Under the pieces are notes generated by a model. The model was not told the DNA's origin. It made no database searches and saw only the letters and a program-made list of their open reading frames with translations. Below are positions 6,540 through 64,000 of a stretch of DNA of 64,000 nucleotides, in pieces. The position numbers and the translations under genes are program-made. Source of the DNA: Candidatus Woesebacteria bacterium RIFCSPLOWO2_01_FULL_39_61 (lineage in GTDB: Bacteria; Patescibacteriota; Microgenomatia; UBA8517); contig MGHI01000040.1 in the NCBI GenBank assembly GCA_001793155.1, positions 3,209-67,208 on the forward strand. The letters are read 5' to 3'. Position 1 is the first letter of the stretch. Each line of letters opens with the position of its first letter.

Positions 6540-7706
6540 ATGGAGCCAAAACTATTACATCCAATCAGCTTTAATCCGCGAATCCCCTACCCGGTTACTA
6601 TTCTATTGGCAGGCTTTGCTACCTTCATAATTTCCTTTATCTATTTTTTAAATTTGGACAGCGACTTTGTCTATAAAATTCAAAGACAAGCGGTTGTTCA
6701 AAAAATTGAAAATTACGAATATTCACTTCGGGAAAAAGCCGCAACACAAGCTGTCCATACCGAAGCCGTATCTTACCAACTTCCGTCTGACTTTGCGGTT
6801 TTGCCCTCAGCAAAGTGGGTACCGCAGACGTTTAATAACTGCGGTCCCGCAACTACTTCCATGGTTTTACAGTATTTCGGATACAGCGTTAGCCAGGAAG
6901 ATACAAAATCTGCTTTGAGAACAAATCCTGACGACAAAAACGTTTTTACTTTCGAAATTTCAGATTACTTAAGAAAAAATTACAATATAGAATCCAAACT
7001 TTTATATAACGGAAGTGCTCAAACTCTAAAAACCTTAATCGCAAACGGAATCTATGTCATGGTTGAGGATTGGCTTCATCCGAATGAGGATATCGGACAC
7101 GTAACGATTCTCAGAGGGTTCGACGATAAAAGGGGGATGTTTATCGCAGACGACTCCTACCTGGGTACAAATATTAAATATCCTTATGAAGAATTCGATA
7201 AGACGCAGTGGAAACCTTTTAACCGGGAATATTTACCTGTCTATAAACCTGAACAAAAAGCTCTCGTTGAAACCATAGTCGGAAATGACTGGGATGAAAA
7301 AACTATGTTTGAGAATGCAGTTGAGAAGAATTTAGCGGACACAAAAAAAGATTCCGAGGACATGTATGCCTGGTTTAATGTAGGAACCAGTTATTTTGCA
7401 CTCGGAAAATTCCAGGAAGCAAAAAGTGCATTCGAAAAATCAAAAGAAATCGGCTGGCCGAAAAGAATGCTTTGGTATCAAATTCAACCTGTAGAAACTT
7501 ATATTGCTTTAAGCGAGTCTGATAAAGCCATTCAACTGGCCAATGTCGGGTTAATCGGTAACGATAGTTTCTCAGAACTACATCTTGAGAAGGCCAAAGC
7601 CTATAAAGGACTTGGAGACATGGGTAAAGCCCGTGAAGAGACTGAAAAAGCTCTTTATTACCATCCCAATTATCCGGATGCGAAAGAATTTCTAAACAGT
7701 CTTTGA
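6540..7706 (+). CDS. Membrane-anchored C39-like peptidase domain protein with C-terminal TPR repeats
   Basis: 388-aa ORF. N-terminal TM helix. NNCGPATTSMVLQYFGY matches the catalytic-Cys motif of the Peptidase_C39_2 family. C-terminus has TPR-like helices (AWFNVGTSYFALGKFQEA..., LEKAKAYKGLGDMGKA). Confidence 0.6.
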   Translation: MEPKLLHPISFNPRIPYPVTILLAGFATFIISFIYFLNLDSDFVYKIQRQAVVQKIENYEYSLREKAATQAVHTEAVSYQLPSDFAVLPSAKWVPQTFNNCGPATTSMVLQYFGYSVSQEDTKSALRTNPDDKNVFTFEISDYLRKNYNIESKLLYNGSAQTLKTLIANGIYVMVEDWLHPNEDIGHVTILRGFDDKRGMFIADDSYLGTNIKYPYEEFDKTQWKPFNREYLPVYKPEQKALVETIVGNDWDEKTMFENAVEKNLADTKKDSEDMYAWFNVGTSYFALGKFQEAKSAFEKSKEIGWPKRMLWYQIQPVETYIALSESDKAIQLANVGLIGNDSFSELHLEKAKAYKGLGDMGKAREETEKALYYHPNYPDAKEFLNSL

Positions 7707-14524: not shown

Positions 14525-16324
14525 TTAGTGTTTTTTAGTATCTAAATCCGGGTTTTCAAGATCATGTAGCTTATTGGTTAAAATATTGTACTTTTCTTGA
14601 GTTTTTAACAATTTCCCCGTTTCCTTTTTAAGTTCCAGGTCTTTTATCTTTAAAGCTGACTTTTTCAATTCTTCCTTAATTTGAACGCTTTGAAGCTGTC
14701 TAACGATAAGTTCTATCTCTTTTTCGTAAGTTTCGGGTTTATCGGCCAAGCCCCTAATGTCCTTCAATACCATATCCGTAAATCCGCTTACCAACTCGTC
14801 GGGGAGCTTGCTTGCAAATATTGACGGATCAAATTCCTTGTTTTTATCCATAAAGAGGGTAAACTCGTCGAGTATTTTTCTGGTTAGCGGGGTTTTAACC
14901 AAAGCTTGGGTCTGACGATTAAGAAGAACTTTGGGATCATAACGAAAGGCTACACTCATAAGACGGTCTTCCAAAAGCTCTCTTCTTCCTTTCTTCTCTT
15001 CACTGGGAATTATTACAACATTAGAAGCTTCTTTATTATCTTCCGTGGGTTTTCTGAAAGATATCTGTTCTGCCACGGCCTCGGGATTTACGCCCAAACG
15101 CCTGGCCACCTCCTGAATATAGTAAGACTGAACAATCTTGTCTGATATACGGGAAAGAATAGGAACGACCTCTCTGCTTATTTTCGCCTTGGCAATTCCG
15201 GTTTTGTCGGTGTTTTTGGCAAAGATGAGATCAATAACAAAATCCCAAACTCCTACTGCGTTCTGCACTGCTTTCTTAAGATAGTCGGGGTTCTGTCTAG
15301 CTGCTTCGTCCGGATCTTTATACTTACCGAGCCTTACCACTCGCATATCAAACCCTTGCCTTTCTGCAATTTCTATACCACGCTTGGCAGCCGAATCACC
15401 GGCAACGTCGGCATCAAGTGCTAAAATTATTTCGTTGGCAAAACGGGATAAAAGTCCCACCTGATCTTCGGTTAGAGCCGAACCCTTGATTGCGACTACA
15501 TTTTTAATACCCGCTTGCCAGCTCGATATCATATCCAACTCCCCCTCAACGACAACTACCGAACCGCTCTTTTTAATATCTTTTTTGGTCGATTCAAGTC
15601 CGTAAAGAATCTTGGATTTGTGATATATATCAGTCTCCGGAGTGTTTATATACTTAGCCAGGTTTAGTTTTTCCTTATCGGGCAAAATTCTACCGGCAAA
15701 ACCTACCACATTACTCCTGTGATCTGATAAAGGAAAGATAACCCTACCACGGAAGCGGTCATATGTCTTTCCGTCTTTAGTATAGATAAGGCCCGCCGAT
15801 TCGAGATCTTTTTGAATAAATTTCTTTTTCTCGATTAAATATTTCCTTATGGCAAACGGTTCGTCAGGAGAATAACCCAACTTAAATGTCCTGATGGTTG
15901 ATATCTTCAATCCACGCCTTAGGAGATAGTCAAGCGCCTTTTTTCCGACTCTGTGACTGGTTAGAACATAATGATAAAAAGCGGTTGTCAAAGAATTCAC
16001 TCGGTAAAGTTTGTCCTTAACCCCCTGCTGACCGGATTGCAAAGGCTTAAGCTGCACCCCGGCACGGTCGGCCAAGAATTTCAGAGCTTCGTAAAAATCC
16101 ATTCCTTCATACTTCTCCAAAAAAGAAATTGCGTCTCCTGATTCTCCGCAGCCAAAACACTTAAAATGCTGAATTTCGGGCGAAACCACAAATGACGGTG
16201 TTTTCTCGCTATGAAAAGGGCACAAGGCTTTGAAGTTCTTTCCGGCCTTCTTTAAGGTAATATAATCCGAAATCACCGAAACAATATCGGATTTTGCTTT
16301 TATTTCATCTACTTGATCACTCAT
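14525..16324 (-). CDS. dnaG: DNA primase DnaG
   Basis: 599-aa ORF with zinc-finger CPFHSEKTPSF...CFGCG, TOPRIM region (VVVEGELD..., ILALDADVAGD). Sits immediately upstream of rpoD, the classic dnaG-rpoD arrangement. Confidence 0.9.
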   Translation of the reverse strand: MSDQVDEIKAKSDIVSVISDYITLKKAGKNFKALCPFHSEKTPSFVVSPEIQHFKCFGCGESGDAISFLEKYEGMDFYEALKFLADRAGVQLKPLQSGQQGVKDKLYRVNSLTTAFYHYVLTSHRVGKKALDYLLRRGLKISTIRTFKLGYSPDEPFAIRKYLIEKKKFIQKDLESAGLIYTKDGKTYDRFRGRVIFPLSDHRSNVVGFAGRILPDKEKLNLAKYINTPETDIYHKSKILYGLESTKKDIKKSGSVVVVEGELDMISSWQAGIKNVVAIKGSALTEDQVGLLSRFANEIILALDADVAGDSAAKRGIEIAERQGFDMRVVRLGKYKDPDEAARQNPDYLKKAVQNAVGVWDFVIDLIFAKNTDKTGIAKAKISREVVPILSRISDKIVQSYYIQEVARRLGVNPEAVAEQISFRKPTEDNKEASNVVIIPSEEKKGRRELLEDRLMSVAFRYDPKVLLNRQTQALVKTPLTRKILDEFTLFMDKNKEFDPSIFASKLPDELVSGFTDMVLKDIRGLADKPETYEKEIELIVRQLQSVQIKEELKKSALKIKDLELKKETGKLLKTQEKYNILTNKLHDLENPDLDTKKH

Positions 16325-40319: not shown

Positions 40320-40417
40320 CAAAAATTGCATTTGCAATTTTTGAAAGGAGAAGCCAGCGAAAAGCCAATATCCCGAGCTTGTCGAGGGATAAAGGCGTCG
40401 AAGCTAGGCTTCGACGC

Positions 40418-40774: not shown

Positions 40775-40840
40775 CACTTCGCTACTTTCAATATGAAAGT
40801 AGCTTCGCGTGGTAAACCACACAGTATTTAAAAACCTTCT
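40767..40840 (+). repeat. Direct repeat X: tmRNA 3' terminus plus downstream flank (also repeated at 42259..42320)
   Basis: CCGTCTCCACACTTCGCTActttcaatatgaaagtaGCTTCGCGtGgtaaACCACAcAGT versus 42259 CCGTCTCCACCACTTCGCTAatGCTTCGCGgtGcaagcACCACAtAGT. Confidence 0.45.
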
Positions 40841-44595: not shown

Positions 44596-45306
44596 TTAAC
44601 GGACTCTCCCTTCTAGCTTTTCTTGCTCCTCTTCCAAGCGCAACTCTCTTAGTATCTTTGCGACTTTATCAGGGTTAGGTACGTCTTCAAATTCGATCTT
44701 TGGAACTTCGGCGGCTGTTTGAATTACGACATCTCCGTAATGAAGATAGGTCCGAATCGCTCCACCAACCTCTACCGTAACATCCTGAATTTGGTCGATA
44801 TTTGCGTCTGTAATTTCTCTATAAAAAAGATTCACAAAATCGACCTCAACAATTCTTTCGTCTGTAACTATATTTACATGGAAAAACCATGTTAAAAATT
44901 TTTCTAAAGCAATGGCAAAAGTTATCAGATACCAAATCATCACAAGGACAGACTGAAATCCCAAAGGAAGCAAATCAAAAAACGAAAATAGAGGTAAGAA
45001 AGCCGGAGCAAGTATCATTAGAAACACCAAAAATAGCCATCCCAAATTAGAAACGGGGTGTCTCCGTATAAGAAGAATAACCTTTTCCTCAGGGTCTTCA
45101 TTGATAAACTGTACATAATCGGGATAATAGCAAAAAGAGGCTAGCGGATTGTGGGTATGGTCCTTAAAATTGTGTCCGTGAGGATGGGGTAATTGAACCG
45201 GAATCTCCTGAACCGCATTTTTGTGAATTTTAATATTTGGTTTTTCTGATATGGGAGCTTTTAGACTTCTAACCCCTGAGTCTTTTGATTTGAATATATC
45301 GGGCAC
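44596..45306 (-). CDS. Bacterial PH-domain (bPH_2 / DUF304, YdbT-like) membrane protein
   Basis: 236 aa. EKVILLIRRHPVSNLGWLFLVF... TM hairpin, then ...TDERIVEVDF... The PH-like beta region is typical of bPH_2. Confidence 0.55.
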   Translation of the reverse strand: MPDIFKSKDSGVRSLKAPISEKPNIKIHKNAVQEIPVQLPHPHGHNFKDHTHNPLASFCYYPDYVQFINEDPEEKVILLIRRHPVSNLGWLFLVFLMILAPAFLPLFSFFDLLPLGFQSVLVMIWYLITFAIALEKFLTWFFHVNIVTDERIVEVDFVNLFYREITDANIDQIQDVTVEVGGAIRTYLHYGDVVIQTAAEVPKIEFEDVPNPDKVAKILRELRLEEEQEKLEGRVR

Positions 45307-47272: not shown

Positions 47273-47737
47273 ATGAAAGTAAAAATTACAAAGATACTCA
47301 CCAGTATTTTTCTTTTTCTATTCCTACTATTCTCCTTTAACAAAGTTACCTATGCTGGTATTTTACCCGGACCCGAAAGATGTACTCCCTCAGGTGGTGG
47401 ATTTTGGGGGTGGATAACAGAAGCCAATACTGGTATTGATACTGCAATTGGTTGTATACCTCTTGAAATCGGATTCTTCGGATCTTCGGGTGGCGCCCGA
47501 TCTTTTACCGCTTTTATGCTCCGTTGGGCAGCCGGCCTCGGAGGAGGAATTGCTTTTATACTTATAGTCTATGCGGGTTTTATGATTACTACCGCAGCAG
47601 GCAATCCCCAACGTCTGCAGGCGGGAAGAGAACTCTTAACCTCTGCCATATCCGGTCTACTGATGCTTATCTTCTCTGTTTTTATCCTGAGAGTCGTCGG
47701 AATTGATATTTTGGGCTTAGATGCTCTCGGATTGTAA
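47273..47737 (+). CDS. T4SS pilin-like protein (VirB2/TrbC-like, CPR type), paralog 1
   Basis: 154 aa. Signal peptide, Gly-rich region, then ...YAGFMITTAAGNPQRLQAGRELLTSAISGLLMLIFSVFIL (hydrophobic-motif-hydrophobic) as in the following seven paralogs. Confidence 0.45.
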   Translation: MKVKITKILTSIFLFLFLLFSFNKVTYAGILPGPERCTPSGGGFWGWITEANTGIDTAIGCIPLEIGFFGSSGGARSFTAFMLRWAAGLGGGIAFILIVYAGFMITTAAGNPQRLQAGRELLTSAISGLLMLIFSVFILRVVGIDILGLDALGL

Positions 47738-47748
47738 TAGTCATCAAA

Positions 47749-48072: not shown

Positions 48073-48087
48073 TCACAAGATACTGTT

Positions 48088-48402: not shown

Positions 48403-48420
48403 AGATCGTACAATCAATTT

Positions 48421-48750: not shown

Positions 48751-48771
48751 CTTTGAAATTTTGCATATAAA

Positions 48772-49143
48772 ATGAACCAGTTATCAATATCTATACCAAT
48801 AGGAAATTTAAGAGGCACAGGGCCGCTGGGTTTTGAGAATGTATCCTCTACACGCTCTGTTGGTTATATTCTAAATCAGGTTATATCCGTTTTGGTTGGG
48901 GCAATGACGTTATTTGCAACAATTTGGTTTTTGATCTTATTAATCACGGCTGCGTACAGCTGGATGAATGCGGGAGGGGATAAAGTGGCACTCGAGAACG
49001 CAAGACAAAAAATGTTACATGCAGTAATAGGCCTGACGATTGTCATCGTGGCAATTTTTGTTGCCGACTTTATCGGCTTTATTCTCGGCGTTCCGGACAT
49101 TTTGAACGTCGAAGGATTCATAACCAGAATACTAAATCCCTAA
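48772..49143 (+). CDS. T4SS pilin-like protein, paralog 5
   Basis: 123 aa. ...LITAAYSWMNAGGDKVALENARQKMLHAVIGLTIVIVAIFVA... Confidence 0.5.
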   Translation: MNQLSISIPIGNLRGTGPLGFENVSSTRSVGYILNQVISVLVGAMTLFATIWFLILLITAAYSWMNAGGDKVALENARQKMLHAVIGLTIVIVAIFVADFIGFILGVPDILNVEGFITRILNP

Positions 49144-49146
49144 GTT

Positions 49147-49521
49147 ATGATAACTTTTATTCCATCGGTTATCTACGCACAAGTATATCAACCGCCGGCA
49201 AGGCGAATTGTAAACCCTTTATTAAATGTAACTCTTCAAATATTAAGTGGGAATATTTTTATTTCACGCTTTCTTCCAGCTCTTTTAACTCTGCTTTTTG
49301 TTATCGGTTGCATTTATTTTCTTTTTATATTTACCCTGGGGGCAATCCAGTGGATCAATTCAGGGGGGGATAAAGTAAAACTTGAACAAGCAAGGGACAG
49401 GGTTACACAGGCGGTTATCGGATTGGGAGTTCTTTTGTCTGTCTATGGTGTTTTAAGTCTTCTGGAGTACTTCTTTGGAACGAATCTCAGGTCCTTTAAC
49501 ACCAACAGTATTAGGATTTAG
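49147..49521 (+). CDS. T4SS pilin-like protein, paralog 6
   Basis: 124 aa. MITFIPSVIYAQ signal. ...GAIQWINSGGDKVKLEQARDRVTQAVIGLGVLLSVYGVL... Confidence 0.5.
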   Translation: MITFIPSVIYAQVYQPPARRIVNPLLNVTLQILSGNIFISRFLPALLTLLFVIGCIYFLFIFTLGAIQWINSGGDKVKLEQARDRVTQAVIGLGVLLSVYGVLSLLEYFFGTNLRSFNTNSIRI

Positions 49522-55485: not shown

Positions 55486-58400
55486 TTAAGGAGTCGGTGT
55501 TGTAGTCTGAACTGCTCGCCTCTTCTTTTTCTCTTCATCTATTCGTCTTTGTTCTTCTTCGAAAGCTTCGATTTCTTTTGCCATTTTCTTCGATATACCC
55601 CTTCTTGATCTCTCTCGTGGAGCAAAAAGCGTTCCTTCTATATAAATGTCGTATAAAAGGTTCCAATCACTTGTTAATACATCTCTTGCGTGCAACGAGT
55701 CGTAAAGTTGTTTACGCCGTTCTGGGCTCATAAAAAATCGATTATCGGAAAGTACGGAGGTTACTATAGCATTATATGCAGACTCGGGAATATCAAGTAT
55801 TGTTTCTGCTTGTCCGGTAACAAACCCCTTTTCTGGGCTCATTATTAAAGCTGTTGCTCCGAGAAGATAGGCACGATCGGTAAATATCGGAGCCAATTTT
55901 GCATCCCCCCTAACTTTAATCCACTTATCAAGAAAGGATTCCCTCGACAATCTTTTCTTGGGATCCCCGCTCATTTGGTGCCCCTCAAGTGCCACAACAG
56001 CACTGCCAACATCCCAATAATAACCCCACCATTCACCAGCCCTAACTTCATCAAGCACTTTACCGGCGTTTTCATTTCCATTTTCAGTCAGATCAACAAG
56101 CTCAATCGGAACTTCTTTTGTGATTGTTTTTTGTCCTTTTTCAAATTTGATCACGGCTTTTTGTGCAGTCTCGATTGGCACTGCCCTAACATACCTTTCT
56201 TTATCTATAAGTACGTCTGCTATTGAAGTTGATGGGTGCCTGCTTCTTTCTCCCGTCTGCGGATCTGCATATTCTTGCCCTCCCGTATCAATCATCTCCA
56301 ATACACTGTAGAACATCCTCTCCGGAATATAATCTCTTTCGCCTTCGTCAAATTCTTCCCTGAAAGTCGTTCCCTTTTTGGTTTTTCTATCCTTAACACT
56401 GTAATTTTCCCTTGTCCACTCACCTAGGGGACCACCGTATGCGCGTTCTGCGTTTAAGGTTCGTTCCATATCAGCCGCTTTCCGCTCTGCCTCGTCAAGC
56501 TTGTCGGGTGCTATCCGTCCAGCAGCCACATCCTCTCGTATCCGCTTTATCTCTGCCGACTTTCTTTCAAATCTCTTTCTGGCAGAAAGTCGTTCTTTTA
56601 GTTTAAGTCCCGGTGAAAAAAGTTCTCTTACTCCATCCGAAATTGTAGCCGATTCCTGTAGCTTTATAGCATAATCTTTGCGTGTGGGATCATCCTCCTC
56701 CTTAATAGCCTCTGTTTGTGCTCTGTAGACGTCTCCCGAATCATAAGCGCCGGTAGCGTAAAAAAGGTCATCGGCGGCATGAACGGAGGTTTGAATTAAA
56801 TCTTCTACTGTAACCCGATGATCTGTTGCCCATTTTCTAGCTTCTTCCACTTCTTTCTGGTGGTTCTCTAGATTTCTTTCTGCTTTAGTTATTTCCGCAT
56901 CAACATCTTCCCCCTGTACTTTTCTTGTTTTTAAGCTCTCCAATTCATCAATTGATTTCTGCAACCCCTGGTCGCTGAGTCTTTCAGACATCGCCTTCGT
57001 TAAAGCCTTTCTATAAGCGTCAAGGTTCTTTTTATCTGATAAAAGCTGATAGCCTGTTTCCGATAATACAAATTGTTTGAAGTTGAAACCTGTAGCAAAA
57101 TTTAATTTTTCAACCTTCTCTTGCACCTTAACAAGCTCGTCCCCTTGAAATTCTCCCCTTTGTATCTTTTCGGTTAATGTTTTTGCTTCTTCGGCTGCCT
57201 CGGCCCCTACTTTGTCCGGAAAATCTTGGAACACGTCTTTTGCAAGGGTTAAAACCGCCATTCGAAATCCGGGTGTATTATCCCAAGCCTCCCTGAAATA
57301 TTCGCGGGAAAGCCTGGCTCCCTGGGCTTCGATCCAATTTTCGGACGTTTTTGCTCCGGTTAACTCTTTAATATATGAAAGGTAATTGAGCTGTAAAAAT
57401 AGTCTGATTGAATCCTGATATTTCTCCCTATCCTCGTTACTTATCCGGGTGCCGTCCGGTCTTTGTTCAAACCTGAACCAGTACGGGTTGCTCGAATCAA
57501 ACCCTTCGGGGTTTGTAAAAGCCCTGTGCTTCATCGCGTGAACAACGGCCTCGTAACCGGAAAGAAGCGCTCGGTTTTGCTCTACTGCCATCCTATATTG
57601 ACCCTCGGTAAAGTCAGCCATTTTCTTTAATTGTTCAAGCAGTGCATCTCCAGCCACGGCCCCACCAGTAGCAACTTCTGGTTTTCTGTATTTACCCTTT
57701 CCTTGAATAAAGTCGGAGGCGTCTTTTTTTAACTGCGGTCTTTCCTTACCCCATCGTTCGAGATCAATGGTTTTTCCGTACCTGTCAAGGTATAATTTCG
57801 CTTCTTCTGCCACCTTTCTATATTCAGTGGCAGTTTTGGTGTCTCCCGCAGCTTCTGCAGCCAGAGCCGCACCTGGGTAATATTCAAGTTGTGCTTCAGC
57901 AAGATGAAACTCCATTTGATCTAACGCTCCTCCGATATAGGCCGAAGACATTCCCCCAAAATCAACGGTTGATCGATTCAAACTTCTGGTTTCTACTCTA
58001 TGTAGTTCAGATGCGTTTCTACCAAGACCGCCAATTACATCCATTGCATCTATGTAATCATTATCCATTTGAGCCTTTTTTATTTGTACGTTAATCCCCC
58101 GAACCTCACCCGACACCGGATCTGTATGTCTAAAAATTCCAGCGGCTTTTGCTGACTGGACTAAAACTTCATCTCGGGCAAATTTCAGTCCTTCTACCGC
58201 CTTAGCAACCTCATCATCCGTTAAATTTTGTCCGTTTACTGTAAACCCACTTGGTGTATCAACTAAACCCAATAGTCTATTCTGAATTAAAAGAAATAGA
58301 CTTTCGTTGGGATCCTGGGCTTTTTCTCTGTTGATTTCTTCAATTATCCCCATTAACTTTTCGCTGTCTCTAAACTCTACATGTAAGGCTCCGATTGTGG

Positions 58401-58689
58401 CCTTTTCTAAAACTTCCCTGTACACAAGCTTCTTTTCATCAGATAGTGTACCTCCTTCAAATAGTAGAGCCTTCGTGTTTTTTTCCTGAAGCCTATCTAT
58501 ATATTCCCTTCTAGACATAGACCTTTTTTCAATGTCCCCAAGAATTGCATCCATCCTCTCTGAATCAGGATCGTTACCAATATATCTCTTACCCTCTAGT
58601 TTTCCGCTACTTGGTTCCCAACTGGTGGTCGCAATTTTTATATCTGGTCGTCCTTCTCCTTCTGGTCCGTCGCTCATTTTTCCTTTCAC
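55486..58689 (-). CDS. Large hypothetical soluble protein (1067 aa), no TM segments, function unknown
   Basis: The ORF track starts at GTG (58689). The ATG (MSDGPEG) lies 4 codons in. Preceded by the RBS GAAAGGA and a TTCACA-N16-TATAAT promoter. Charged, helix-rich, no recognisable catalytic motifs. Confidence 0.5.
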   Translation of the reverse strand: MKGKMSDGPEGEGRPDIKIATTSWEPSSGKLEGKRYIGNDPDSERMDAILGDIEKRSMSRREYIDRLQEKNTKALLFEGGTLSDEKKLVYREVLEKATIGALHVEFRDSEKLMGIIEEINREKAQDPNESLFLLIQNRLLGLVDTPSGFTVNGQNLTDDEVAKAVEGLKFARDEVLVQSAKAAGIFRHTDPVSGEVRGINVQIKKAQMDNDYIDAMDVIGGLGRNASELHRVETRSLNRSTVDFGGMSSAYIGGALDQMEFHLAEAQLEYYPGAALAAEAAGDTKTATEYRKVAEEAKLYLDRYGKTIDLERWGKERPQLKKDASDFIQGKGKYRKPEVATGGAVAGDALLEQLKKMADFTEGQYRMAVEQNRALLSGYEAVVHAMKHRAFTNPEGFDSSNPYWFRFEQRPDGTRISNEDREKYQDSIRLFLQLNYLSYIKELTGAKTSENWIEAQGARLSREYFREAWDNTPGFRMAVLTLAKDVFQDFPDKVGAEAAEEAKTLTEKIQRGEFQGDELVKVQEKVEKLNFATGFNFKQFVLSETGYQLLSDKKNLDAYRKALTKAMSERLSDQGLQKSIDELESLKTRKVQGEDVDAEITKAERNLENHQKEVEEARKWATDHRVTVEDLIQTSVHAADDLFYATGAYDSGDVYRAQTEAIKEEDDPTRKDYAIKLQESATISDGVRELFSPGLKLKERLSARKRFERKSAEIKRIREDVAAGRIAPDKLDEAERKAADMERTLNAERAYGGPLGEWTRENYSVKDRKTKKGTTFREEFDEGERDYIPERMFYSVLEMIDTGGQEYADPQTGERSRHPSTSIADVLIDKERYVRAVPIETAQKAVIKFEKGQKTITKEVPIELVDLTENGNENAGKVLDEVRAGEWWGYYWDVGSAVVALEGHQMSGDPKKRLSRESFLDKWIKVRGDAKLAPIFTDRAYLLGATALIMSPEKGFVTGQAETILDIPESAYNAIVTSVLSDNRFFMSPERRKQLYDSLHARDVLTSDWNLLYDIYIEGTLFAPRERSRRGISKKMAKEIEAFEEEQRRIDEEKKKRRAVQTTTPTP

Positions 58690-58757
58690 TAATCAAATTA
58701 TATCATCTTAATTATACTTCATCTATAAATTTTGTGAAAACGCTTCAGGTTTGAAAA
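58671..58757. repeat. Direct repeat R1: promoter plus 5' end of the 1067-aa gene plus conserved upstream element TTTGTGAAAACGCTTCAGGTTTGAAA
   Basis: ccgtcgctcatttttcctttcactaatcaaattatatcatc...tttgtgaaaacgcttcaggtttgaaa. About 90% identical to R3 (60308..60385) apart from a 13-nt indel. Confidence 0.6.
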
Positions 58758-58989
58758 AAAATGGAAGAAATATCACTTTAAGAAATTCCTCTAACGTCAT
58801 AGAGGCCTGGTTTAAAATACTCTGAAAGGTTCCCATCGCAACTTCCTTGTGGTTGGGAATAATGATAGTTTGAAGTTTACCTCTCCAAAAACCCTTAAGT
58901 TTGACGTGGCTTCCCTTCTGAGATACTTTGTAAAATCCTGCCTTTTTAAAAGATTTTATGATTACTCTGGCTGAGTAAAGCTTAGGCAT
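58723..58989 (-). CDS. hicA: HicA family toxin (mRNA interferase)
   Basis: Start taken at MPKLYSAR. ...KKAGFYKVSQKGSHVKLKGFWRGKLQTIIIPNHKEVAMGTFQSILNQASMTLEEF matches the HicA core (GSH..., P.H...G.L..IL). The C-terminal tail runs into repeat R1. Confidence 0.6.
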   Translation of the reverse strand: MPKLYSARVIIKSFKKAGFYKVSQKGSHVKLKGFWRGKLQTIIIPNHKEVAMGTFQSILNQASMTLEEFLKVIFLPFFFKPEAFSQNL

Positions 58990-59197
58990 AAATAAGTCGT
59001 AGCTCAGGGTTTTTTGGAACACCAACGGTCGGAAGTTTAACGTTCTCGTCTTCCAACAGCAATTCAACGGCTTCCTTTAAATTGTTAAGGGCCTCTTTTT
59101 CTGTTCTACCTTGGCTGGCAAGCTCAATTCCGATGAGTTTAGCAACAAACAATTTTTCTTCCTGCCAAACAAGGGCTGACAATTTCCTCTTCGCCAT
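58982..59197 (-). CDS. hicB: HicB family antitoxin (short form)
   Basis: Start taken at MAKRKLSALVWQEEKLFVAKLIGIELASQGRTEKEALNNLKEAVELLLED, the UPF0150/HicB N-terminal pattern. Overlaps hicA by 8 nt. Confidence 0.6.
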   Translation of the reverse strand: MAKRKLSALVWQEEKLFVAKLIGIELASQGRTEKEALNNLKEAVELLLEDENVKLPTVGVPKNPELRLIYA

Positions 59198-59248
59198 ACT
59201 AGCTAATAGTAGTAAAAACAACTGCAGTAATCAAGGATTAATTAATTT

Positions 59249-59275
59249 TGTGAAAACGCTTCAGGGTTGAAAGGA
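59249..59275. repeat. Partial repeat R2: conserved upstream element TTTGTGAAAACGCTTCAGGGTTGAAA
   Basis: 27-bp copy located about 50 bp upstream (minus-strand sense) of the hicB start. Confidence 0.5.
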
Positions 59276-59381
59276 AATAATATTATCGATTTTATTCTCG
59301 AATCTCGGGAGTCTGAAAATAGTGCAAATTTACTGATATAATAGAGAGAGTACATTTTCGGAATGCGATGTCTGTAAGCTC

Positions 59382-59633
59382 ATGCTACAAAAAATTTTAC
59401 AAAATAAGCCTTATCTGGCCTGGTATGTTAAAAATAGAAGTACGCTTTCGGACGTGAGTACGTTGGAACATATTTTATCCTACGGTAATTGGGACGATAT
59501 TTTGGAAGCAGAAAAGACCGTGGGAATCTCTAAAATGAAGTCTCTTTTTCAAGAAATCGCATCAAAAAAAAGAGTAAACCTCAAACCACAAACGCTCAAT
59601 TTCTTTCAAAACTATTTCGATAAATATGCATGA
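59382..59633 (+). CDS. Hypothetical small protein, possible cognate partner (AbiEi-like antitoxin?) of the downstream nucleotidyltransferase
   Basis: 83-aa ORF overlapping the downstream AbiEii-like gene by 8 nt (translational coupling). No confident family match. Confidence 0.3.
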   Translation: MLQKILQNKPYLAWYVKNRSTLSDVSTLEHILSYGNWDDILEAEKTVGISKMKSLFQEIASKKRVNLKPQTLNFFQNYFDKYA

Positions 59634-60237
59634 AGAAATTCTATCGGAAAATCAAAAGAGGCTTCTTCCTCTCCTAAATAGATTCTCGGGAAAATTCGGG
59701 CTGGTTGGCGGAACCGCAATTGCACTACATATTGGCCATAGAAGGTCCCTCGACCTTGACCTGGCAACTCTTGAAAGTACAAAAAACGAAAAAGTAGCGA
59801 ACGAAGTAAGAAGTCTTTACTCAATAGAAAGTGTTCTTGTCGATGAAGTAAACGAATTAAGTATAGTTGTAGAATCCGTCAAGCTCACTTTCTTTACCTA
59901 CCCTTTCCACATTGAATTTACAGACAAGCTGACCCAAGTTTTAAAAATGCCAGATTTAGTAACACTATCTTCTATGAAAGCTTACGCTCTGGGGAGAAGA
60001 GCAAAATGGAAGGATTATGTGGATTTGTATTTTGTTTTTAAGAATTACTCTTTAAAGGATGTTGTAGATAAGTCAAAAGGGATCTTCAAGGGTGAGTTTA
60101 ACGAAAAATTATTTAGAGAAGAACTTAGTTATTTTGAAGACATAGATTATTCAGAAGAAATTGACTATATGGAAGGCTTTAAGACGAACGACGACGTCAT
60201 TAGAAATGCTCTAAAGGAAGTCAGCCTTCAGAAGTAA
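59626..60237 (+). CDS. AbiEii/AbiGii-type nucleotidyltransferase toxin (DUF1814 family)
   Basis: 203 aa. ...FGLVGGTAIALHIGHRRSLDLDL... is the GGTAL..GHR.S.D.D motif of AbiEii-family NTases. Confidence 0.65.
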   Translation: MHEEILSENQKRLLPLLNRFSGKFGLVGGTAIALHIGHRRSLDLDLATLESTKNEKVANEVRSLYSIESVLVDEVNELSIVVESVKLTFFTYPFHIEFTDKLTQVLKMPDLVTLSSMKAYALGRRAKWKDYVDLYFVFKNYSLKDVVDKSKGIFKGEFNEKLFREELSYFEDIDYSEEIDYMEGFKTNDDVIRNALKEVSLQK

Positions 60238-60307
60238 TAACTAAAACCTGGTGACCAGTTAACTTGAAGCCAACCTTTTTCAGTACAGTTTTCGCTCACT
60301 CCCAGCT

Positions 60308-60385
60308 CCGTCACTCATTTTTCCTTTCACTAATCAAATTATACCATCATTAGAAAAGTTTGTGAAAACGCTTCAGGGTTGAAAA
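60308..60385. repeat. Direct repeat R3: orphan duplicate of the promoter and first codons (MSDG...) of the 1067-aa gene
   Basis: ccgtcactcatttttcctttcactaatcaaattataccatcattagaaaagtttgtgaaaacgcttcagggttgaaa. Read on the minus strand it gives TTCACA-N17-TATAAT, an RBS, and ATGAGTGACGGA. The ORF then terminates after 12 codons. Confidence 0.6.
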
Positions 60386-60435
60386 AGCACGTTCACGAGG
60401 TAAGGTAAAGGGTGAAGGTTAAAGGGTAAAAGAAA

Positions 60436-60822
60436 ATGACTATTCCCTCCCAAGTCACTAGCTACAAAAAATTACAACTATATCAGAAGGCCAGGCTTTT
60501 AGTTCTTAAAACATACCAGATTACATCCTTATATCCAAAGTCAGAATTGTATTCATTGGTTCCTCAGATGCGAAGATCAGCCATGTCTGTACTTGCAAAT
60601 ATTGTAGAAGGATATTCAAAAGAAAGCGCACCTGAATATGCCAGATTTTTAACTATTTCTATCGGATCTATAACTGAACTCGAGGTTTATTTAGACATCT
60701 CTTTAGATTTGGGTTACCTTTCAAAAGATAAACTTGATAAAATGAATACAATAATAATTGAAGTAAAAAGACTTTTGTACGGATCAAGAAAAAGGGCTCG
60801 AGAAAAGATAAGTATAAAGTAA
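60436..60822 (+). CDS. Four-helix-bundle protein (23S rRNA IVS protein / Avd-like fold family)
   Basis: 128 aa. LQLYQKARLLVLKTYQITSLYPKSELYSLVPQMRRSAMSVLANIVEGYSKESAPEYARFLTISIGSITELEVYLDISLDLGYL is a strong match to the family consensus. Confidence 0.7.
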   Translation: MTIPSQVTSYKKLQLYQKARLLVLKTYQITSLYPKSELYSLVPQMRRSAMSVLANIVEGYSKESAPEYARFLTISIGSITELEVYLDISLDLGYLSKDKLDKMNTIIIEVKRLLYGSRKRAREKISIK

Positions 60823-60856: not shown

Positions 60857-61882
60857 ATGGATCAAGAACACCCGATACCGCAACAAATTTCAGCCTATCA
60901 ATTCAGGCTGGTCGGAGATATGACCTTGAAACAGTTTTTTCAGGTTGCTGCCGGAGTTTTAATTTCTTTGGTTATTTATTCTTCGGGTCTGACGCCGTAT
61001 ATTAAATGGCCGCTGATAATCCTTTCATTTTTGGCGGGCATTGCTTTTGCCTTTTTTCCGCTTGAAGATAGACCGCTCTCTAAATGGCTTTTCCTTTTTG
61101 TAAAAGCAATATACTCTCCTACAATTTATACCTGGAAAAAAAAAGTTGTCGAACCTCAGTTTTTCCAACCCGAACCGATTTCTCAGCCTACTTCGATGCC
61201 TCAAACACCTGCCATAGAGGATTTGGCAACTAAACAGGCTCCTGTACCAAGTCTGGAGCCTTCTCCGAAGGAGTTTCAAAAATTTGAACAGCGCGAAAAA
61301 GAATTTATGTCAAAGGTGTCGGAACAATTTGAGTCAGCAAAAAAAGTTGAACTTGGCGGGAAAGCTCCACGACAAGTTCCTCTGGATAATGATAAGGTTA
61401 AGGTTCCCCAAGTTCCGGCCCTGACGGTCGAAAAGACAGAGAAAAAGCCCGTCGTTCCAATCCCGGAACTTAGCGTTTCGGACGTCGGAAGCGAAATAAC
61501 CGCTTCCGTCGGACAAAGAATGAACGAGGTTAAACTCGCGGAATTTTCTCCGGAAGCAGCACCCCCAACCCCTCCCACAAAATCCAACATTGTTGTGGGA
61601 CAGGTCATAGATTCAAAAGGCATGATTATTGAAAATGCAATTCTTGAAATTAAAGATCCTGAAGGCCGTTCGGTAAGAGCTCTCAAAAGCAACAAGCTAG
61701 GGCACTTTATGATTGTTACGCCTTTGGCAAACGGTAAATATGAGATAATAACTGAGAAAGAAGGGTTTACCTTTGAACCGATATCCTTTGAAGCAAGAGG
61801 AGATATTATACCACCGGTTTTCGTCAAAGCCAATCAAATTGAAGCTAATCTAGCTACTAATCAACCAACAATGGTTAACTAA
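60857..61882 (+). CDS. Membrane protein: N-terminal PrgI/VirB3-like TM hairpin, Pro-rich linker, C-terminal carboxypeptidase-regulatory-like beta-sandwich
   Basis: 341 aa. ISAYQFRLVGDMTLKQFFQVAAGVLISLVIY...PLIILSFLAGIAFAFFP resembles PrgI-family proteins that precede VirB4 in Gram-positive-type T4SS. The C-terminal VVGQVIDSKGMIIENAILEIKDPEGRSVRALKSNKLGHFMIVTPLANGKYEI resembles the CarboxypepD_reg fold. Confidence 0.4.
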   Translation: MDQEHPIPQQISAYQFRLVGDMTLKQFFQVAAGVLISLVIYSSGLTPYIKWPLIILSFLAGIAFAFFPLEDRPLSKWLFLFVKAIYSPTIYTWKKKVVEPQFFQPEPISQPTSMPQTPAIEDLATKQAPVPSLEPSPKEFQKFEQREKEFMSKVSEQFESAKKVELGGKAPRQVPLDNDKVKVPQVPALTVEKTEKKPVVPIPELSVSDVGSEITASVGQRMNEVKLAEFSPEAAPPTPPTKSNIVVGQVIDSKGMIIENAILEIKDPEGRSVRALKSNKLGHFMIVTPLANGKYEIITEKEGFTFEPISFEARGDIIPPVFVKANQIEANLATNQPTMVN

Positions 61883-61896: not shown

Positions 61897-62565
61897 ATGG
61901 CAATACCTTTTCTAAGTACTCCTGATAAAACAATTCTTTCAACCACGCAGGACCTTATTCCTTTAGCTGATATTGTCGACGGAGTTGTGATCTATAAAAA
62001 CGGAGGCGCTGCCCAAATCATGGAATCAACTTCTCTTAATTTTGGCCTCTTAAGCGAAAACGAACAAGAAGCAGTTATTGCATCATATGCGGGACTTCTT
62101 AACTCTTTCAATTTCCCAGTCCAAATCGTGGTCAGGTCACAAAAAAAGGATATCTCTATTTATATGAATTTCTTAAACGAAGCCCAATCTAAAATTAATA
62201 ATCCAAAATTGATTCATATAATGGAAGACTATAAAAATTTTATAGCCGAAGCGATTAAAAAGAAAAATGTGCTTAGTAAAAAGTTCTATATCGTGGTTTC
62301 CTTTTCTCCTTTCGAACTAGGATTAGGAAAGTCTTTAGTAACAACTTTTAGGCCATCGAAAAAAGGGGCACTCTTACCATTTCCCAAATCCTACGTTGTA
62401 AGAAAAGCAAAAATTGCTCTTTTCCCTAAAAGAGAACACTTAGCAAGACAGGCAAGAAGATTAAATATTCAGCTAAAACCCCTGTCGAACGAAGACCTTA
62501 TCCGACTTTTTTATAATACTTATAACCCTGAACCTCCTGTAAAGGAAATGGGGATTCTGGGATAA
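61897..62565 (+). CDS. VirB4/TrbE N-terminal domain-like protein (CagE_TrbE_VirB-like), in frame with the downstream ATPase ORF
   Basis: 222 aa. DLIPLADIVDGVVIYKNGGAAQIMESTSLNFGLLSENEQEAVIASYAGLLNSFNFPVQIVVRSQ follows the VirB4 N-domain pattern (L..D.I..L.DGS....I..G..FEL..E.E.......FN.LL......V.IY..LVR). Terminated by a single TAA. Confidence 0.4.
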   Translation: MAIPFLSTPDKTILSTTQDLIPLADIVDGVVIYKNGGAAQIMESTSLNFGLLSENEQEAVIASYAGLLNSFNFPVQIVVRSQKKDISIYMNFLNEAQSKINNPKLIHIMEDYKNFIAEAIKKKNVLSKKFYIVVSFSPFELGLGKSLVTTFRPSKKGALLPFPKSYVVRKAKIALFPKREHLARQARRLNIQLKPLSNEDLIRLFYNTYNPEPPVKEMGILG

Positions 62566-62655
62566 GCTGCTGCGGAATTGATACTGCAGCAGTCTCGAAC
62601 TTTGTGTGAGACTAGCTTGTTCACTCCTCGCCCAAAGGCGAGTTTGAATAAATAT

Positions 62656-64000
62656 ATGAAGCTGCCGAGCCTATTTAGAAAAAAACCAAAAGAAAAAGAG
62701 AGTCAAAAACCGGATATAAATAAAGCCGATCAGGTCATTAGCCCTACTGACCAAAAATCTCCGACAGCTACAGCCGCAGGGGTTAATAACGGCAAAAACA
62801 TACCTCCACCGGATAAGCCAAAAATAGATGACCCCGTTGTTGCAATTAGTCAAAATGAAAGTCTTATAAATGTAATTGCTCCCGAGATGGTCGAGTTGGA
62901 TTTTGACTTTTTTAGGGTTAACAATGTCTATTTGCGCACGCTTTTCATTTCGGGTTATCCGAGATTTGTTTCTCCGGGATGGCTAGAACAGGTCATTAAC
63001 TTTAATAGCTCCCTCGACATCTCATTTTTTATCTATCCGATTGAGGGCAAAGGAGTGCTGGATGATCTCCTACACAAGGTTGCCGAAATGGAAGCGGAAA
63101 TTGCAACCGATCTTGAGCGTGGAAAAATAATCAATCCGGCAACACAGGCAAGGCTTGACGACGCAAGGCTTCTGCAAGATGAATTGGTCAAAGGAGCCGA
63201 GCATTTTTTTGAATTCGCTTTCTATATTACTATCCGCGCCTTTGACTTTGAGCAACTAAATCAAATTACTAAACAAGTCGAGTCAACGCTGGGGTCGCTT
63301 CTTATAACCGCAAAGCACAGCACTCTCGATATGGAAAACGGGTTCCTTTCAACCTCTCCCTTCGGCTTAGACAGAATTTCGATTACCCGCAACATGGATA
63401 CAACTTCTTTGTCAACAACCTTCCCCCTCACCTCGGCTGAGTTGTCCAGCGACAAAGGAGTGCTTTACGGAATTAACTCTCAAAACGGATCTTTTATTAT
63501 TTTTGATCGGTTCTCGATGGAAAATTCCAACATGACCGTGTTCGCGACTAGCGGAGCTGGAAAATCTTATTTCGTTAAACTCGAATCTCTGAGGTCTCTA
63601 ATGCTTGGGTCGGAGGTAATTATCATTGACCCCGAAAGCGAATATAAAGCGCTATCCGACGCCGTCGGAGGAGAATATCTCACATTTTCTTTTAATTCCC
63701 CAAGCAAAATCAATCCCTTCGGGCTTTCCCAAATTCATGAGGAGGGTGAAAATCAATTAAACCTAAAAATTCTTTCGCTGCATTCGCTTTTCAAAATTAT
63801 TATGGGAGCGATCACTCCTCCCCAAGAAGCCCTTCTGGATCGGGCTCTCGTCGAAACTTACAGATCAAAAGGAATTGATATGGATCCTACAACCCAAACT
63901 AAGGAACCTCCTCTAATGGAGGATTTATACAAAGTATTAATCGGAATGGAGGTTCCGGAAGCCCTCGATTTGGCCGCTCGAATCGAAAAGTATGTTCGAG
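62656..64000 (+). CDS. virB4: VirB4/TrbE/CagE-family conjugal-transfer ATPase (5' partial; runs off window end)
   Basis: ...DFDFFRVNNVYLRTLFISGYPRFVSPGWLEQVINFNSSLDISFFIYP... is the typical VirB4 core start. Walker A FATSGAGKSY. The ORF is open to the window end, so it was not listed in the ORF track. Confidence 0.7.
   Translation, partial: MKLPSLFRKKPKEKESQKPDINKADQVISPTDQKSPTATAAGVNNGKNIPPPDKPKIDDPVVAISQNESLINVIAPEMVELDFDFFRVNNVYLRTLFISGYPRFVSPGWLEQVINFNSSLDISFFIYPIEGKGVLDDLLHKVAEMEAEIATDLERGKIINPATQARLDDARLLQDELVKGAEHFFEFAFYITIRAFDFEQLNQITKQVESTLGSLLITAKHSTLDMENGFLSTSPFGLDRISITRNMDTTSLSTTFPLTSAELSSDKGVLYGINSQNGSFIIFDRFSMENSNMTVFATSGAGKSYFVKLESLRSLMLGSEVIIIDPESEYKALSDAVGGEYLTFSFNSPSKINPFGLSQIHEEGENQLNLKILSLHSLFKIIMGAITPPQEALLDRALVETYRSKGIDMDPTTQTKEPPLMEDLYKVLIGMEVPEALDLAARIEKYVR

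What the first reader, a model, noticed from the sequence alone, without database searches (positions are those of the whole stretch)
61897..62700. VirB4 ATPase split by a single in-frame TAA followed by three consecutive hairpins
ORF 61897..62565 (VirB4 N-domain-like) and the ATPase ORF starting at 62656 are in the same reading frame. The only stop between them is the TAA at 62563-62565. The 90-nt spacer translates without further stops (AAAELILQQSRTLCETSLFTPRPKASLNKY-M...).

The spacer contains three stem-loops:
- CTGCTGC-N12-GCAGCAG
- GTCTC-N11-GAGAC
- CTCGCC-CAAA-GGCGAG

This is consistent with a recent nonsense mutation in a single virB4 gene (a pseudogene), with programmed stop-codon readthrough, or with a genuine two-gene arrangement using reinitiation at the ATG. 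The structured RNA immediately 3' of the stop makes recoding or regulation worth testing.
Basis: seen in the sequence. Interest (0 to 1): 0.65.

Follow-up and report, generated by a model that had tools for sequence, protein, structure and literature searches.

The report
TrsD-like gene upstream of VirB4
This is not a broken or recoded VirB4 gene: it is the ordinary, already published two-gene arrangement of Patescibacteria secretion systems (a small TrsD-like protein followed by the VirB4 ATPase), and the only unusual thing is an 86-base structured insert between the two genes in this one lineage.

Summary
ORF1 (61897..62565, TAA stop) and the ATG at 62656 are in the same frame. The 90-nt spacer has no stop and forms three hairpins (fold z = -4.1).

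The interpretation as a split, readthrough or pseudogene VirB4 does not hold.
- ORF1 is a TrsD-like ("TraC-like", PF26593) protein, homologous to the N-terminal part of monoderm-type VirB4.
- It is a separate gene of about 220 aa in all 120 best homologues and in 149 of 150 cluster representatives.
- In 18 related loci the stop-to-start gap is -23 to +21 nt, and the two genes lie in all three relative frames.
- The ORF2 N-terminus (MKLxxLFKxKK) is conserved and begins exactly at this ATG.
- Both genes are under strong purifying selection.
- A 2025 paper (PMC12102498) already reports TrsD next to VirB4 across Patescibacteria.

The shared frame comes from a net 86-nt insertion found only in the window's lineage and in relatives with 95% identical ORF1. 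A relative at 90% identity has TAAtcatATG instead.

The insert keeps its base-pairing: 11% of paired columns differ against 36% of unpaired ones, with one compensatory pair. It is probably a structured piece of RNA between the two genes, of unknown role. No other copy was found. Overall interest is low.

The parts
60857..61882 (+). PrgI-like (VirB3-like) membrane protein of 341 aa with a C-terminal CarboxypepD_reg-like domain. It is the first gene of the prgI - trsD-like - virB4 run.
   Evidence: Pfam PrgI E = 8.9e-6 over residues 6-84 and CarboxypepD_reg E = 5.6e-5; both scores are just below the curated cut-offs. The same gene precedes the ORF1 homologue in L018, L020 and L032.
61897..62565 (+). 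ORF1: a standalone TrsD-like / TraC-like-domain protein of 222 aa, homologous to the N-terminal part of monoderm-type VirB4.
   Evidence: 100% identical to Ca. Woesebacteria hypothetical protein A2962_01640; all 120 best homologues are 217-240 aa. NCBIfam matches to the N-terminal positions of two VirB4 families and to TrsD/TraD. 43% identical to residues 4-199 of the fused VirB4 P0169. The 14 best PDB fold matches are all TrwK/VirB4.
62563..62565 (+). TAA stop of ORF1. It is conserved in position, not a recent mutation.
   Evidence: ORF1 homologues end here in 21 other loci, with TAA, TAG or TGA. The same stop is present in independent assemblies.
62566..62655 (+). 90-nt spacer between the genes. 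About 86 nt of it (roughly 62566-62651) is a lineage-specific insertion that folds into three hairpins.
   Evidence: The alignment with L020 (90% relative) shows TAAtcatATG there. The spacer is present only in L032 (identical) and L018/L019. Fold z = -4.1 in the window and -6.1 in L018.
62567..62592 (+). Hairpin 1 (arms 62567-62576 and 62583-62592).
   Evidence: 90% of cells are paired across three sequences, with one G-C to G-U change.
62593..62611 (+). Hairpin 2 (arms 62593-62600 and 62604-62611, loop TTT). It is perfect in L018 and has one wobble and one mismatch in the window.
62617..62651 (+). Hairpin 3: outer helix 62617-62623 / 62645-62651 and inner helix CTCGCC/GGCGAG 62627-62632 / 62637-62642. 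It ends 4 nt before the ATG.
   Evidence: All cells are paired. There is one compensatory change (C-G in the window, U-A in L018/L019) at 62622/62646.
62656..64000 (+). ORF2: the VirB4-like ATPase, cut off by the window end (633 aa in the identical contig L032). It has a 70-residue low-complexity leader, then the remaining VirB4 N-domain region and the P-loop ATPase (Walker A GAGKS).
   Evidence: Pfam P-loop_TraG E = 7.5e-12 and DUF87 E = 6.2e-10. NCBIfam conju_CD1110 positions 185-571, E = 1.5e-64. 62% identical to P0169 residues 213-588. The N-terminal motif is conserved from this ATG.

Best explanation
Two separate, functional genes of a Patescibacteria (Ca. Woesebacteria) monoderm-type type IV secretion system lie here in the order prgI-like, trsD-like (ORF1), virB4 (ORF2).

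ORF1 encodes, as its own polypeptide, the module that forms the first ~200 residues of single-chain CD1110/ConE-type VirB4 proteins. ORF2 encodes the rest: the remaining N-domain region plus the P-loop ATPase. ORF2 starts at its own ATG at 62656.

By inference, the two proteins assemble non-covalently into a working VirB4 unit that docks on the PrgI/VirB3-like membrane protein encoded just upstream.

In relatives the two genes abut or overlap (-23 to +21 nt). From general knowledge, that spacing allows translational coupling. In the window's lineage a net 86-nt insertion landed between the stop and the start. It happens to restore a common frame and happens to lack stops.

The insert folds into three hairpins that have been kept while unpaired positions drifted. 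It most likely acts in the mRNA as a structured element between the two coding regions. This organism rarely uses Shine-Dalgarno sites, and the A-rich start region downstream is unstructured, so ORF2 can be initiated independently. The element may set the TrsD:VirB4 ratio through mRNA stability or access to the start codon. That last step is inferred and not shown.
For: Separate gene is the rule.
- All 120 best homologues of ORF1 are 217-240 aa.
- 149 of 150 representatives of 50% clusters lack any ATPase part.
- Gene callers on independent contigs give 222 aa followed by 633-635 aa.

Gap and frame across 18 loci without the insert.
- The stop-to-ATG gap is -23 to +21 nt.
- The relative frame is 0 in 5 loci, 1 in 3 and 2 in 10.

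Start codon.
- The ORF2 N-terminus M-[K/A]-[L/F]-x-[L/F]-F-K-x-K-K is conserved and begins at this ATG in the relatives.
- Only 3 of 42 long ORFs in the window have an SD-like motif upstream, so the lack of one here is normal.

Purifying selection, window against L018.
- ORF1: 126 nt differences but only 11 aa changes.
- ORF2 core: 192 nt differences but only 12 aa changes.

Homology to VirB4.
- ORF1 aligns to profile positions 2-121 of conju_CD1110, to 87-233 of VirB4_plasma, and to TrsD/TraD. ORF2 aligns to CD1110 positions 185-571.
- The fused Patescibacteria VirB4 P0169 (787 aa) covers ORF1 and ORF2 colinearly, with only 13 linker residues.
- The AlphaFold model (pLDDT 80.5) matches only TrwK/VirB4 chains with probability >= 0.95.

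Precedent.
- A Pontibacillus plasmid has a 274-aa homologue whose end overlaps the start of an annotated CD1110-family VirB4.
- PMC12102498 reports 2,272 TrsD homologues in Patescibacteria. Of these, 1,664 are next to virB4, and the homologue is essential in Ca. S. epibionticum.

Insertion.
- L020 has TAAtcatATG. The window, L032, L018 and L019 have the 90-nt spacer.

Structure is maintained.
- Fold z = -4.1 in the window and -6.1 in L018.
- 95.7% of cells are paired, with one compensatory pair and three G-U changes.
- 7 of 62 paired columns differ against 10 of 28 unpaired ones (Fisher p = 0.009). Third codon positions of the flanking genes differ at 45%.
Against: - The spacer is open in frame 0 in both diverged versions, and 11 of its 17 differences fall on third positions of that frame (p = 0.008 before correction for three frames). 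Weak translation of the spacer is therefore not strictly excluded.
- The structural argument rests on only two diverged lineages (three sequences). The shuffle control of the covariation count is not significant (181 of 500).
- Intra-strand templated repair of inverted repeats could keep the arms complementary without any selection.
- No expression data exist.
- The physical assembly of TrsD-like protein with VirB4 is inferred, not shown.
- The NCBIfam TrsD score (21.5 bits) is far below that family's cut-off of 200.
Confidence: 0.92

Rival explanations
1. Programmed readthrough (or bypass) of the TAA, stimulated by the downstream hairpins, yields a single TrsD-VirB4 fusion protein alongside the separate products.
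For: - The two ORFs share a frame and the 30-codon spacer is open in both the window and L018/L019.
- Spacer differences are biased to third positions of that frame (11 of 17).
- A stable hairpin starts 1 nt after the stop.
- Single-chain forms of the protein exist in nature (P0169).
Against: - The in-frame relation exists only because of a lineage-specific 86-nt insert. 13 of 18 relatives without the insert have the genes out of frame.
- The spacer peptide has no counterpart in fused homologues, whose linker is 13 residues.
- The spacer peptide is only 70% identical between lineages where ORF1 is 95% identical. Second-position changes run at 17% in the spacer against about 1% in the genes.
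- An open 30-codon frame is expected by chance in about 19% of cases.
- From general knowledge, UAA-G is a tight stop context and no programmed UAA readthrough is known in bacteria.
- No GGA landing codon is present near the 3' end of the spacer for a T4 gene-60-type hop (seen directly in the sequence).
- No Rfam recoding element matches the spacer.
Confidence: 0.03
2. A recent nonsense mutation has split a single virB4 gene, making the locus a decaying pseudogene.
For: ORF1 and ORF2 together are colinear with single-chain VirB4 proteins, and exactly one stop separates them in frame.
Against: - The stop is at the homologous position in all 21 other loci and in more than 1,000 homologues of about 220 aa.
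- Both ORFs show strong purifying selection since the split from L018.
- ORF2 has its own conserved N-terminus.
- The arrangement is published as widespread, and as essential in one cultivated species.
Confidence: 0.01
3. The 86-nt insert is a functionless remnant, such as the footprint of a small mobile or palindromic element or a template-switch product. Its hairpins persist through inheritance and intra-strand repair, not through selection.
For: - The window's copy has less perfect stems than L018's (a wobble and mismatches in hairpins 1 and 2), as expected for decay.
- Covariation is not significant with three sequences.
- All other relatives function without the insert.
- A 7-nt direct repeat (AAGCTGC) lies at the left edge of the spacer and just after the ATG.
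Against: - Paired columns changed three times less often than unpaired ones (p = 0.009) and four times less often than synonymous sites.
- One compensatory pair and three G-U-preserving changes fit an RNA-level constraint on the + strand.
- No second copy was found in the 64-kb window, in 35 loci, or as more than chance matches in the metagenome and viral collections. There are no terminal inverted repeats.
Confidence: 0.4

Closest known systems
TrsD/TraD plus TrsE/TraE (VirB4) of monoderm MPF-FATA conjugation systems (prototype pGO1), and the TrsD-VirB4 pairs described across Patescibacteria (PMC12102498)
   Same: A standalone protein of about 200-220 aa, remotely homologous to the N-terminal portion of VirB4, is encoded immediately upstream of virB4 and next to a PrgI/VirB3-like gene.
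   Different: The score against the NCBIfam TrsD/TraD model is far below its cut-off (21.5 against 200 bits). This lineage alone has a 90-nt structured spacer instead of abutting or overlapping genes.
Single-chain CD1110/ConE-type VirB4 ATPases (NF045971), for example the Patescibacteria protein MEK7091100.1 (P0169, 787 aa)
   Same: ORF1 plus ORF2 are colinear with the whole protein: 43% identity for the ORF1 part and 62% for the ORF2 part.
   Different: Here the module is a separate polypeptide. The junction carries a stop, the spacer and a 70-residue low-complexity leader, where the fused protein has a 13-residue linker.
TrwK/VirB4 of plasmid R388 (PDB 7O43, 8RTB, 8RTD)
   Same: The predicted fold of ORF1 matches only these chains with high probability (E about 2e-3, TM 0.41-0.50 on the query, 186-216 aligned columns).
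   Different: Sequence identity is 12-16%. The tool does not show which TrwK residues align, so assigning the match to the N-domain rests on the sequence profiles.
Stem-loops between the coding regions of polycistronic mRNAs, and REP-type palindromic elements, which act as mRNA stability or attenuation elements (general knowledge)
   Same: Stable consecutive hairpins lie between two co-oriented genes of one operon, and their pairing is maintained.
   Different: The element is single-copy as far as could be searched, matches no Rfam family, has no U-tract terminator, and has no demonstrated effect.
Programmed stop-codon readthrough and the T4 gene 60 translational bypass
   Same: A stop codon is followed at once by a hairpin and an in-frame downstream ORF, and the last sense codon is GGA.
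   Different: There is no conservation of frame, no landing codon and no conserved spacer peptide, and the stop is UAA.

Membership tests
TrsD-like / TraC-like-domain protein (PF26593; NCBIfam NF041427 TrsD/TraD) | Standalone protein of about 200-220 aa with homology to the N-terminal part of VirB4 | tested here: met
   NCBIfam matches to N-terminal positions of conju_CD1110 (E = 3.3e-6) and VirB4_plasma (E = 4.4e-9). 43% identity to residues 4-199 of the fused P0169. Fold matches to TrwK/VirB4 only. Homologues are 217-240 aa.
TrsD-like / TraC-like-domain protein (PF26593; NCBIfam NF041427 TrsD/TraD) | Encoded next to virB4 in a type IV secretion gene cluster | tested here: met
   The order prgI-like, ORF1, virB4 is seen in the window and in L018, L020 and L032. 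A virB4-type ORF carrying the GYPRF motif follows the ORF1 homologue in L001-L017. The same pairing occurs on a Pontibacillus plasmid.
TrsD-like / TraC-like-domain protein (PF26593; NCBIfam NF041427 TrsD/TraD) | Score above the family's curated cut-off | tested here: not met
   NF041427 scores 21.5 bits against a cut-off of 200. PF26593 is listed only as a 'weak' precomputed hit and did not appear in my own Pfam scan at E <= 0.1. The CONJScan TrsD profile used in PMC12102498 is not available here.
VirB4 family ATPase (ORF2) | P-loop ATPase domain of the VirB4/TraG/DUF87 type with a Walker A motif | tested here: met
   P-loop_TraG 45 bits (cut-off 25.8) and DUF87 40 bits (cut-off 23.2). The motif ATSGAGKS is visible in the translation.
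VirB4 family ATPase (ORF2) | Full-length match to the CD1110-type equivalog above its cut-off | tested here: inconclusive
   218.6 bits against a cut-off of 325, but the window truncates ORF2 at residue 448 of 633.
Programmed stop-codon readthrough | The in-frame downstream ORF and the readthrough extension are conserved among relatives | tested here: not met
   Relative frames are 0, 1 and 2 in 5, 3 and 10 loci. The spacer is absent outside one lineage.
Programmed stop-codon readthrough | A fusion product is detectable | not testable with these tools
   This needs proteomics or ribosome profiling of an uncultivated Woesebacteria lineage.
Pseudogene by recent nonsense mutation | Close relatives have an uninterrupted ORF, and constraint on the fragments is relaxed | tested here: not met
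   The stop is conserved in all related loci. Differences concentrate on third codon positions: 103 of 126 in ORF1 and 169 of 192 in the ORF2 core.
Intrinsic (Rho-independent) terminator | G+C-rich stem-loop followed by a run of U | tested here: not met
   No terminator-like site was called in 62566-62655. The tail after hairpin 3 is TTTGAATAAAT.
Repeated palindromic or miniature mobile element (REP, MITE) | Several copies per genome, terminal inverted repeats or a target-site duplication | tested here: inconclusive
   No second copy in the window or in 35 loci. Pattern scans of the metagenome and viral collections gave only chance matches. The rest of the genome could not be searched. There are no terminal inverted repeats. 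A 7-nt direct repeat is present but does not fit a simple duplication of the target.
Known structured RNA family (Rfam 15) | Match to a covariance model | tested here: not met
   No match in the spacer at E <= 10 and none at gathering thresholds. ARAGORN finds no tRNA-like gene there.

The most novel reading that the evidence does not exclude
The 86-nt three-hairpin insert may be a functional, previously undescribed cis-acting RNA element acquired by one Woesebacteria lineage. It could fold compactly so that the trsD stop and the virB4 start stay close together, preserving termination-reinitiation. Alternatively it could act as an mRNA-stability or translational gate that sets the TrsD:VirB4 ratio. 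The lower substitution rate in stems (p = 0.009), the one compensatory pair and the G-U-tolerant changes do not exclude either reading.
Probability: 0.3. Interest if true: 0.3.

Novelty: already known. Interest (0 to 1): 0.12.

Why it matters
Little changes for biology. The locus is a standard member of the Patescibacteria TrsD-VirB4 arrangement described in 2025, and the gene pair should be annotated as two intact genes, not as a pseudogene or a recoding candidate.

It is a useful cautionary case. An in-frame stop followed by hairpins can arise from an unrelated insertion between two conserved genes, and comparison with relatives at 90-95% identity settles the matter.

Two small points may interest specialists. 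First, fission and fusion at this VirB4 junction occur within Patescibacteria: 1 of 150 representatives is fused. Second, a structured insert between the genes appears to be maintained in one lineage.

Tried and rejected
- Readthrough and pseudogene readings: rejected on frame and gap statistics and on selection.
- T4 gene-60-type bypass: the last sense codon is GGA, but no landing GGA lies near the 3' end of the gap (seen in the sequence).
- Known RNA family: no Rfam match, both permissive on the region and at gathering thresholds on the whole window, and no ARAGORN call.
- Intrinsic terminator or promoter inside the spacer: none called.
- Repeated or mobile element:
  - blastn-short of the spacer against the window and all loci found only the orthologous copies.
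  - The metagenome scan with ACTCCTCGCCNNNNGGCGAGTTT gave 11 unrelated matches with no further similarity to the spacer.
  - The viral scan with CTTTGTGTGAGACNAGNTTGTT gave one chance match.
- Spacer as a degenerate duplicate of the ORF2 5' end: the only similarity I saw by eye in the sequences is the 7-nt repeat AAGCTGC.
- First AlphaFold run on a shallow alignment (33 sequences, all at least 67% identical to ORF1): unusable, pLDDT 51. The second run with 47 diverse sequences worked.
- Profile search of PDB sequences with the ORF1 family: only a non-significant hit, DciF at E = 0.21.
Full report
**Observation**

The sequence is as described.
- ORF1 runs 61897..62565 (222 aa) and ends in TAA at 62563-62565.
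- The next ATG, at 62656, is 253 codons after the ORF1 start and therefore in frame.
- The 90-nt spacer has no stop in that frame.
- The three inverted repeats are present.
- The region folds at -41.1 kcal/mol, against -28.2 +/- 3.1 for dinucleotide shuffles (z = -4.1).
- In a scan of all 100-nt windows of the 64 kb on both strands it ranks about eighth among distinct places, in the company of the tRNA and tmRNA genes.
- The open frame is unremarkable: 19% of shuffled spacers are open in frame 0.

**What the two ORFs are**

ORF2 has the P-loop_TraG and DUF87 ATPase domains above the Pfam cut-offs, plus a weak CagE_TrbE_VirB match. It aligns to positions 185-571 of the NCBIfam CD1110-type VirB4 model with E = 1.5e-64. 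The window cuts it at residue 448; the identical contig L032 shows a 633-aa gene.

ORF1 aligns to the N-terminal positions of two VirB4 models: positions 2-121 of conju_CD1110 and 87-233 of VirB4_plasma. It also aligns to the 201-position TrsD/TraD model. All three scores are below the curated cut-offs. Precomputed annotation calls it PF26593 'TraC-like' (weak).

A fused Patescibacteria VirB4 (P0169, MEK7091100.1, 787 aa, with four near-full-length (772-787 aa) cluster mates, found on other contigs) covers both ORFs colinearly. Its residues 4-199 match ORF1 at 43% identity and residues 213-588 match the ORF2 core at 62%. Only 13 residues lie between the two blocks.

An AlphaFold model of ORF1 built on a diverse alignment (pLDDT 80.5, pTM 0.68) matches only TrwK/VirB4 chains of the R388 system with probability >= 0.95 (14 chains, E from 2e-3, TM 0.37-0.50 on the query).

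**Is the split recent, recoded or genuine?**

It is genuine and old.
- ORF1 is 100% identical to a Ca. Woesebacteria hypothetical protein. It has 1,051 homologues at E <= 1e-3 in the word-indexed search, and the 120 best are all 217-240 aa.
- In the exhaustive search of 50% cluster representatives, 1,854 proteins match. Among the best 150 only P0169 carries an ATPase part. The others are standalone, many with Q/P/T/S-rich tails of 100-500 residues.
- In 17 species-representative genomes plus a 90%-identical relative, the ORF1 homologue ends at the same place. The next gene starts -23 to +21 nt from the stop, mostly 2-12 nt away or with an ATGA overlap.
- The relative frame is 0 in 5 loci, 1 in 3 and 2 in 10.
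- The ORF2 N-terminus (MKLPSLFRKKPK here; M-[K/A]-[L/F]-x-[L/F]-F-K-x-K-K in the relatives) begins at that start codon everywhere.
- Between the window and L018, ORF1 has 126 nucleotide differences but only 11 amino-acid changes. The ORF2 core has 192 differences and 12 changes. Both genes are therefore under strong purifying selection.
- The stop is present in independent assemblies.
- An SD motif is not expected here: only 3 of 42 long ORFs in the window have one.

**Prior knowledge**

PMC12102498 (Microb Genom 2025) states that TrsD was the most abundant type IV secretion component found in Patescibacteria. [quoted passage not shown] The paper reports 2,272 homologues, of which 1,664 are associated with virB4, and notes that the homologue is essential in Ca. 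Southlakia epibionticum. It also reports widespread PrgI/VirB3 homologues and VirB2 arrays.

The same split exists in Bacillota. On a Pontibacillus plasmid, a 274-aa homologue (30% identity, E = 1e-21) overlaps by 11 nt the start of an annotated CD1110-family VirB4. Some Bacillus and Halobacillus plasmid records annotate the homologue as TrsD.

**Where the common frame comes from**

The 90-nt spacer occurs only in the window, in L032 (identical) and in L018/L019 (ORF1 95% identical). L020 (90% identical) reads GGATAAtcatATGAAG. A net 86-nt insertion between stop and start therefore created both the hairpins and the shared frame.

The concatenated translation between the two homology blocks is 116 residues long. 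It consists of the ORF1 tail, the 30 spacer codons and a 70-residue low-complexity leader. The fused homologue has 13 residues there, so the spacer is not a conserved linker.

**The insert itself**

The L018 version folds even better: perfect stems of 9 and 8 bp plus a third hairpin of two helices (7 and 6 bp), z = -6.1.

On the three-sequence alignment 95.7% of cells pair. One pair changes on both sides: C-G in the window against U-A in L018/L019, at 62622/62646. Three changes are G-U wobbles. The shuffle control is not significant with so few sequences.

Substitutions avoid the stems. Seven of 62 paired columns differ between the window and L018, against 10 of 28 unpaired columns (Fisher p = 0.009). 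Third codon positions of the flanking genes differ at 45%, a rate the unpaired columns approach (36%, p = 0.34) and the paired columns do not (p = 5e-8). This points to maintenance of the structure. Because G-U is tolerated, the structure probably acts in the + strand RNA.

One caveat remains: 11 of the 17 differences fall on third positions of frame 0 (p = 0.008 uncorrected). However, second-position changes run at 17% in the spacer against about 1% in the genes, and the spacer peptide is only 70% identical.

No Rfam family, tRNA-like gene, terminator or promoter matches. No other copy was found in the window, in the fetched loci, or beyond chance matches in the metagenome and viral collections.

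**Mechanism proposed**

Shown:
- There are two genes and two products.
- The VirB4 start codon is conserved.
- The insert is lineage-specific and structured.

Inferred:
- The TrsD-like protein supplies in trans the N-terminal VirB4 module and assembles with the VirB4 core at the PrgI/VirB3-like membrane anchor.
- In relatives the abutting genes are translationally coupled.
- In this lineage the insert separates them. ORF2 is then initiated independently on its A-rich, SD-less start region, and the hairpins may modulate mRNA stability or access to the start codon.

**Verdict**

This is an ordinary, already described gene arrangement. The recoding and pseudogene readings are not supported. The structured insert is a minor, lineage-specific curiosity with modest evidence of constraint.

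Noticed in passing
window 58723-60822: A cassette of about 2.1 kb sits between the 1067-aa gene (55486..58689, - strand) and the prgI-like gene. It holds a HicA/HicB-like pair, an 83-aa ORF plus an AbiEii-like nucleotidyltransferase, and a 23S_rRNA_IVP/bAvd-like four-helix protein. In the 95% and 90% relatives (L018, L020) the two flanking genes are only about 105 nt apart, so the cassette is a recent insertion into the secretion-system cluster.
   Followed up: partly
window 53216-53641 and 60436-60822: There are two separate genes of the 23S rRNA-intervening-sequence protein family, both lodged between secretion-system genes.
   Followed up: no
window 47273-49521: Three T4SS-pilin-like (VirB2-like, PF18895) genes lie at 47273..47737, 48772..49143 and 49147..49521, all at or just below the Pfam cut-off. 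This matches the VirB2 arrays reported for Microgenomatia in PMC12102498.
   Followed up: partly
window 62564-62570 and 62658-62664; L018 and L019 at the same places: A 7-nt direct repeat, AAGCTGC, lies at the left edge of the spacer and again right after the ORF2 ATG. In L018/L019 both copies read AAACTGC, so the two copies differ from the window in the same way. It does not fit a simple target-site duplication and remains unexplained.
   Followed up: partly
window-wide, for example upstream of 14525..16324 (-), 44596..45306 (-) and 55486..58689 (-): Only 3 of 42 long ORFs have an SD-like motif. Several have GATATAAT ending 7-8 nt before the start codon, which suggests leaderless or near-leaderless transcripts.
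   Followed up: no
window 6421-6520 (+) and 13101-13200 (-): These are the two most strongly folding 100-nt windows of the 64 kb (z -4.7 and -4.3 after correction for G+C). The first holds two perfect hairpins (CCGCCttcgGCGG and CCCCGAGTCTggAGACTCGGGG) just upstream of ORF 6540..7706. Neither has an Rfam match.
   Followed up: no
window 36406-40777: A cluster of four tRNA-Ser genes (TGA, GGA, GCT, CGA), tRNA-Arg(GCG) and a tmRNA with tag peptide ADRDYNYAYA.
   Followed up: no
proteins P0124, P0125, P0143, P0168 and others (homologues elsewhere): Many TrsD-like proteins of other Patescibacteria carry C-terminal tails of 100-500 residues rich in Q, P, T, S and N. The Woesebacteria VirB4 instead carries a 50-130-residue low-complexity N-terminal leader. 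The junction between the two VirB4 modules is therefore a disordered, fast-evolving region on whichever gene holds it.
   Followed up: partly
window 60857-61882: The PrgI-like protein is long (341 aa). After its membrane part it carries a weak CarboxypepD_reg-like beta-sandwich domain at residues 246-305.
   Followed up: no
L003, L004, L006, L008-L010, L013, L014, L016, L017 (record titles): Several GTDB representative genomes that carry this typical Woesebacteria/Microgenomates locus are titled 'uncultured Gammaproteobacteria bacterium' in their records. This looks like a mislabelling in the source.
   Followed up: no
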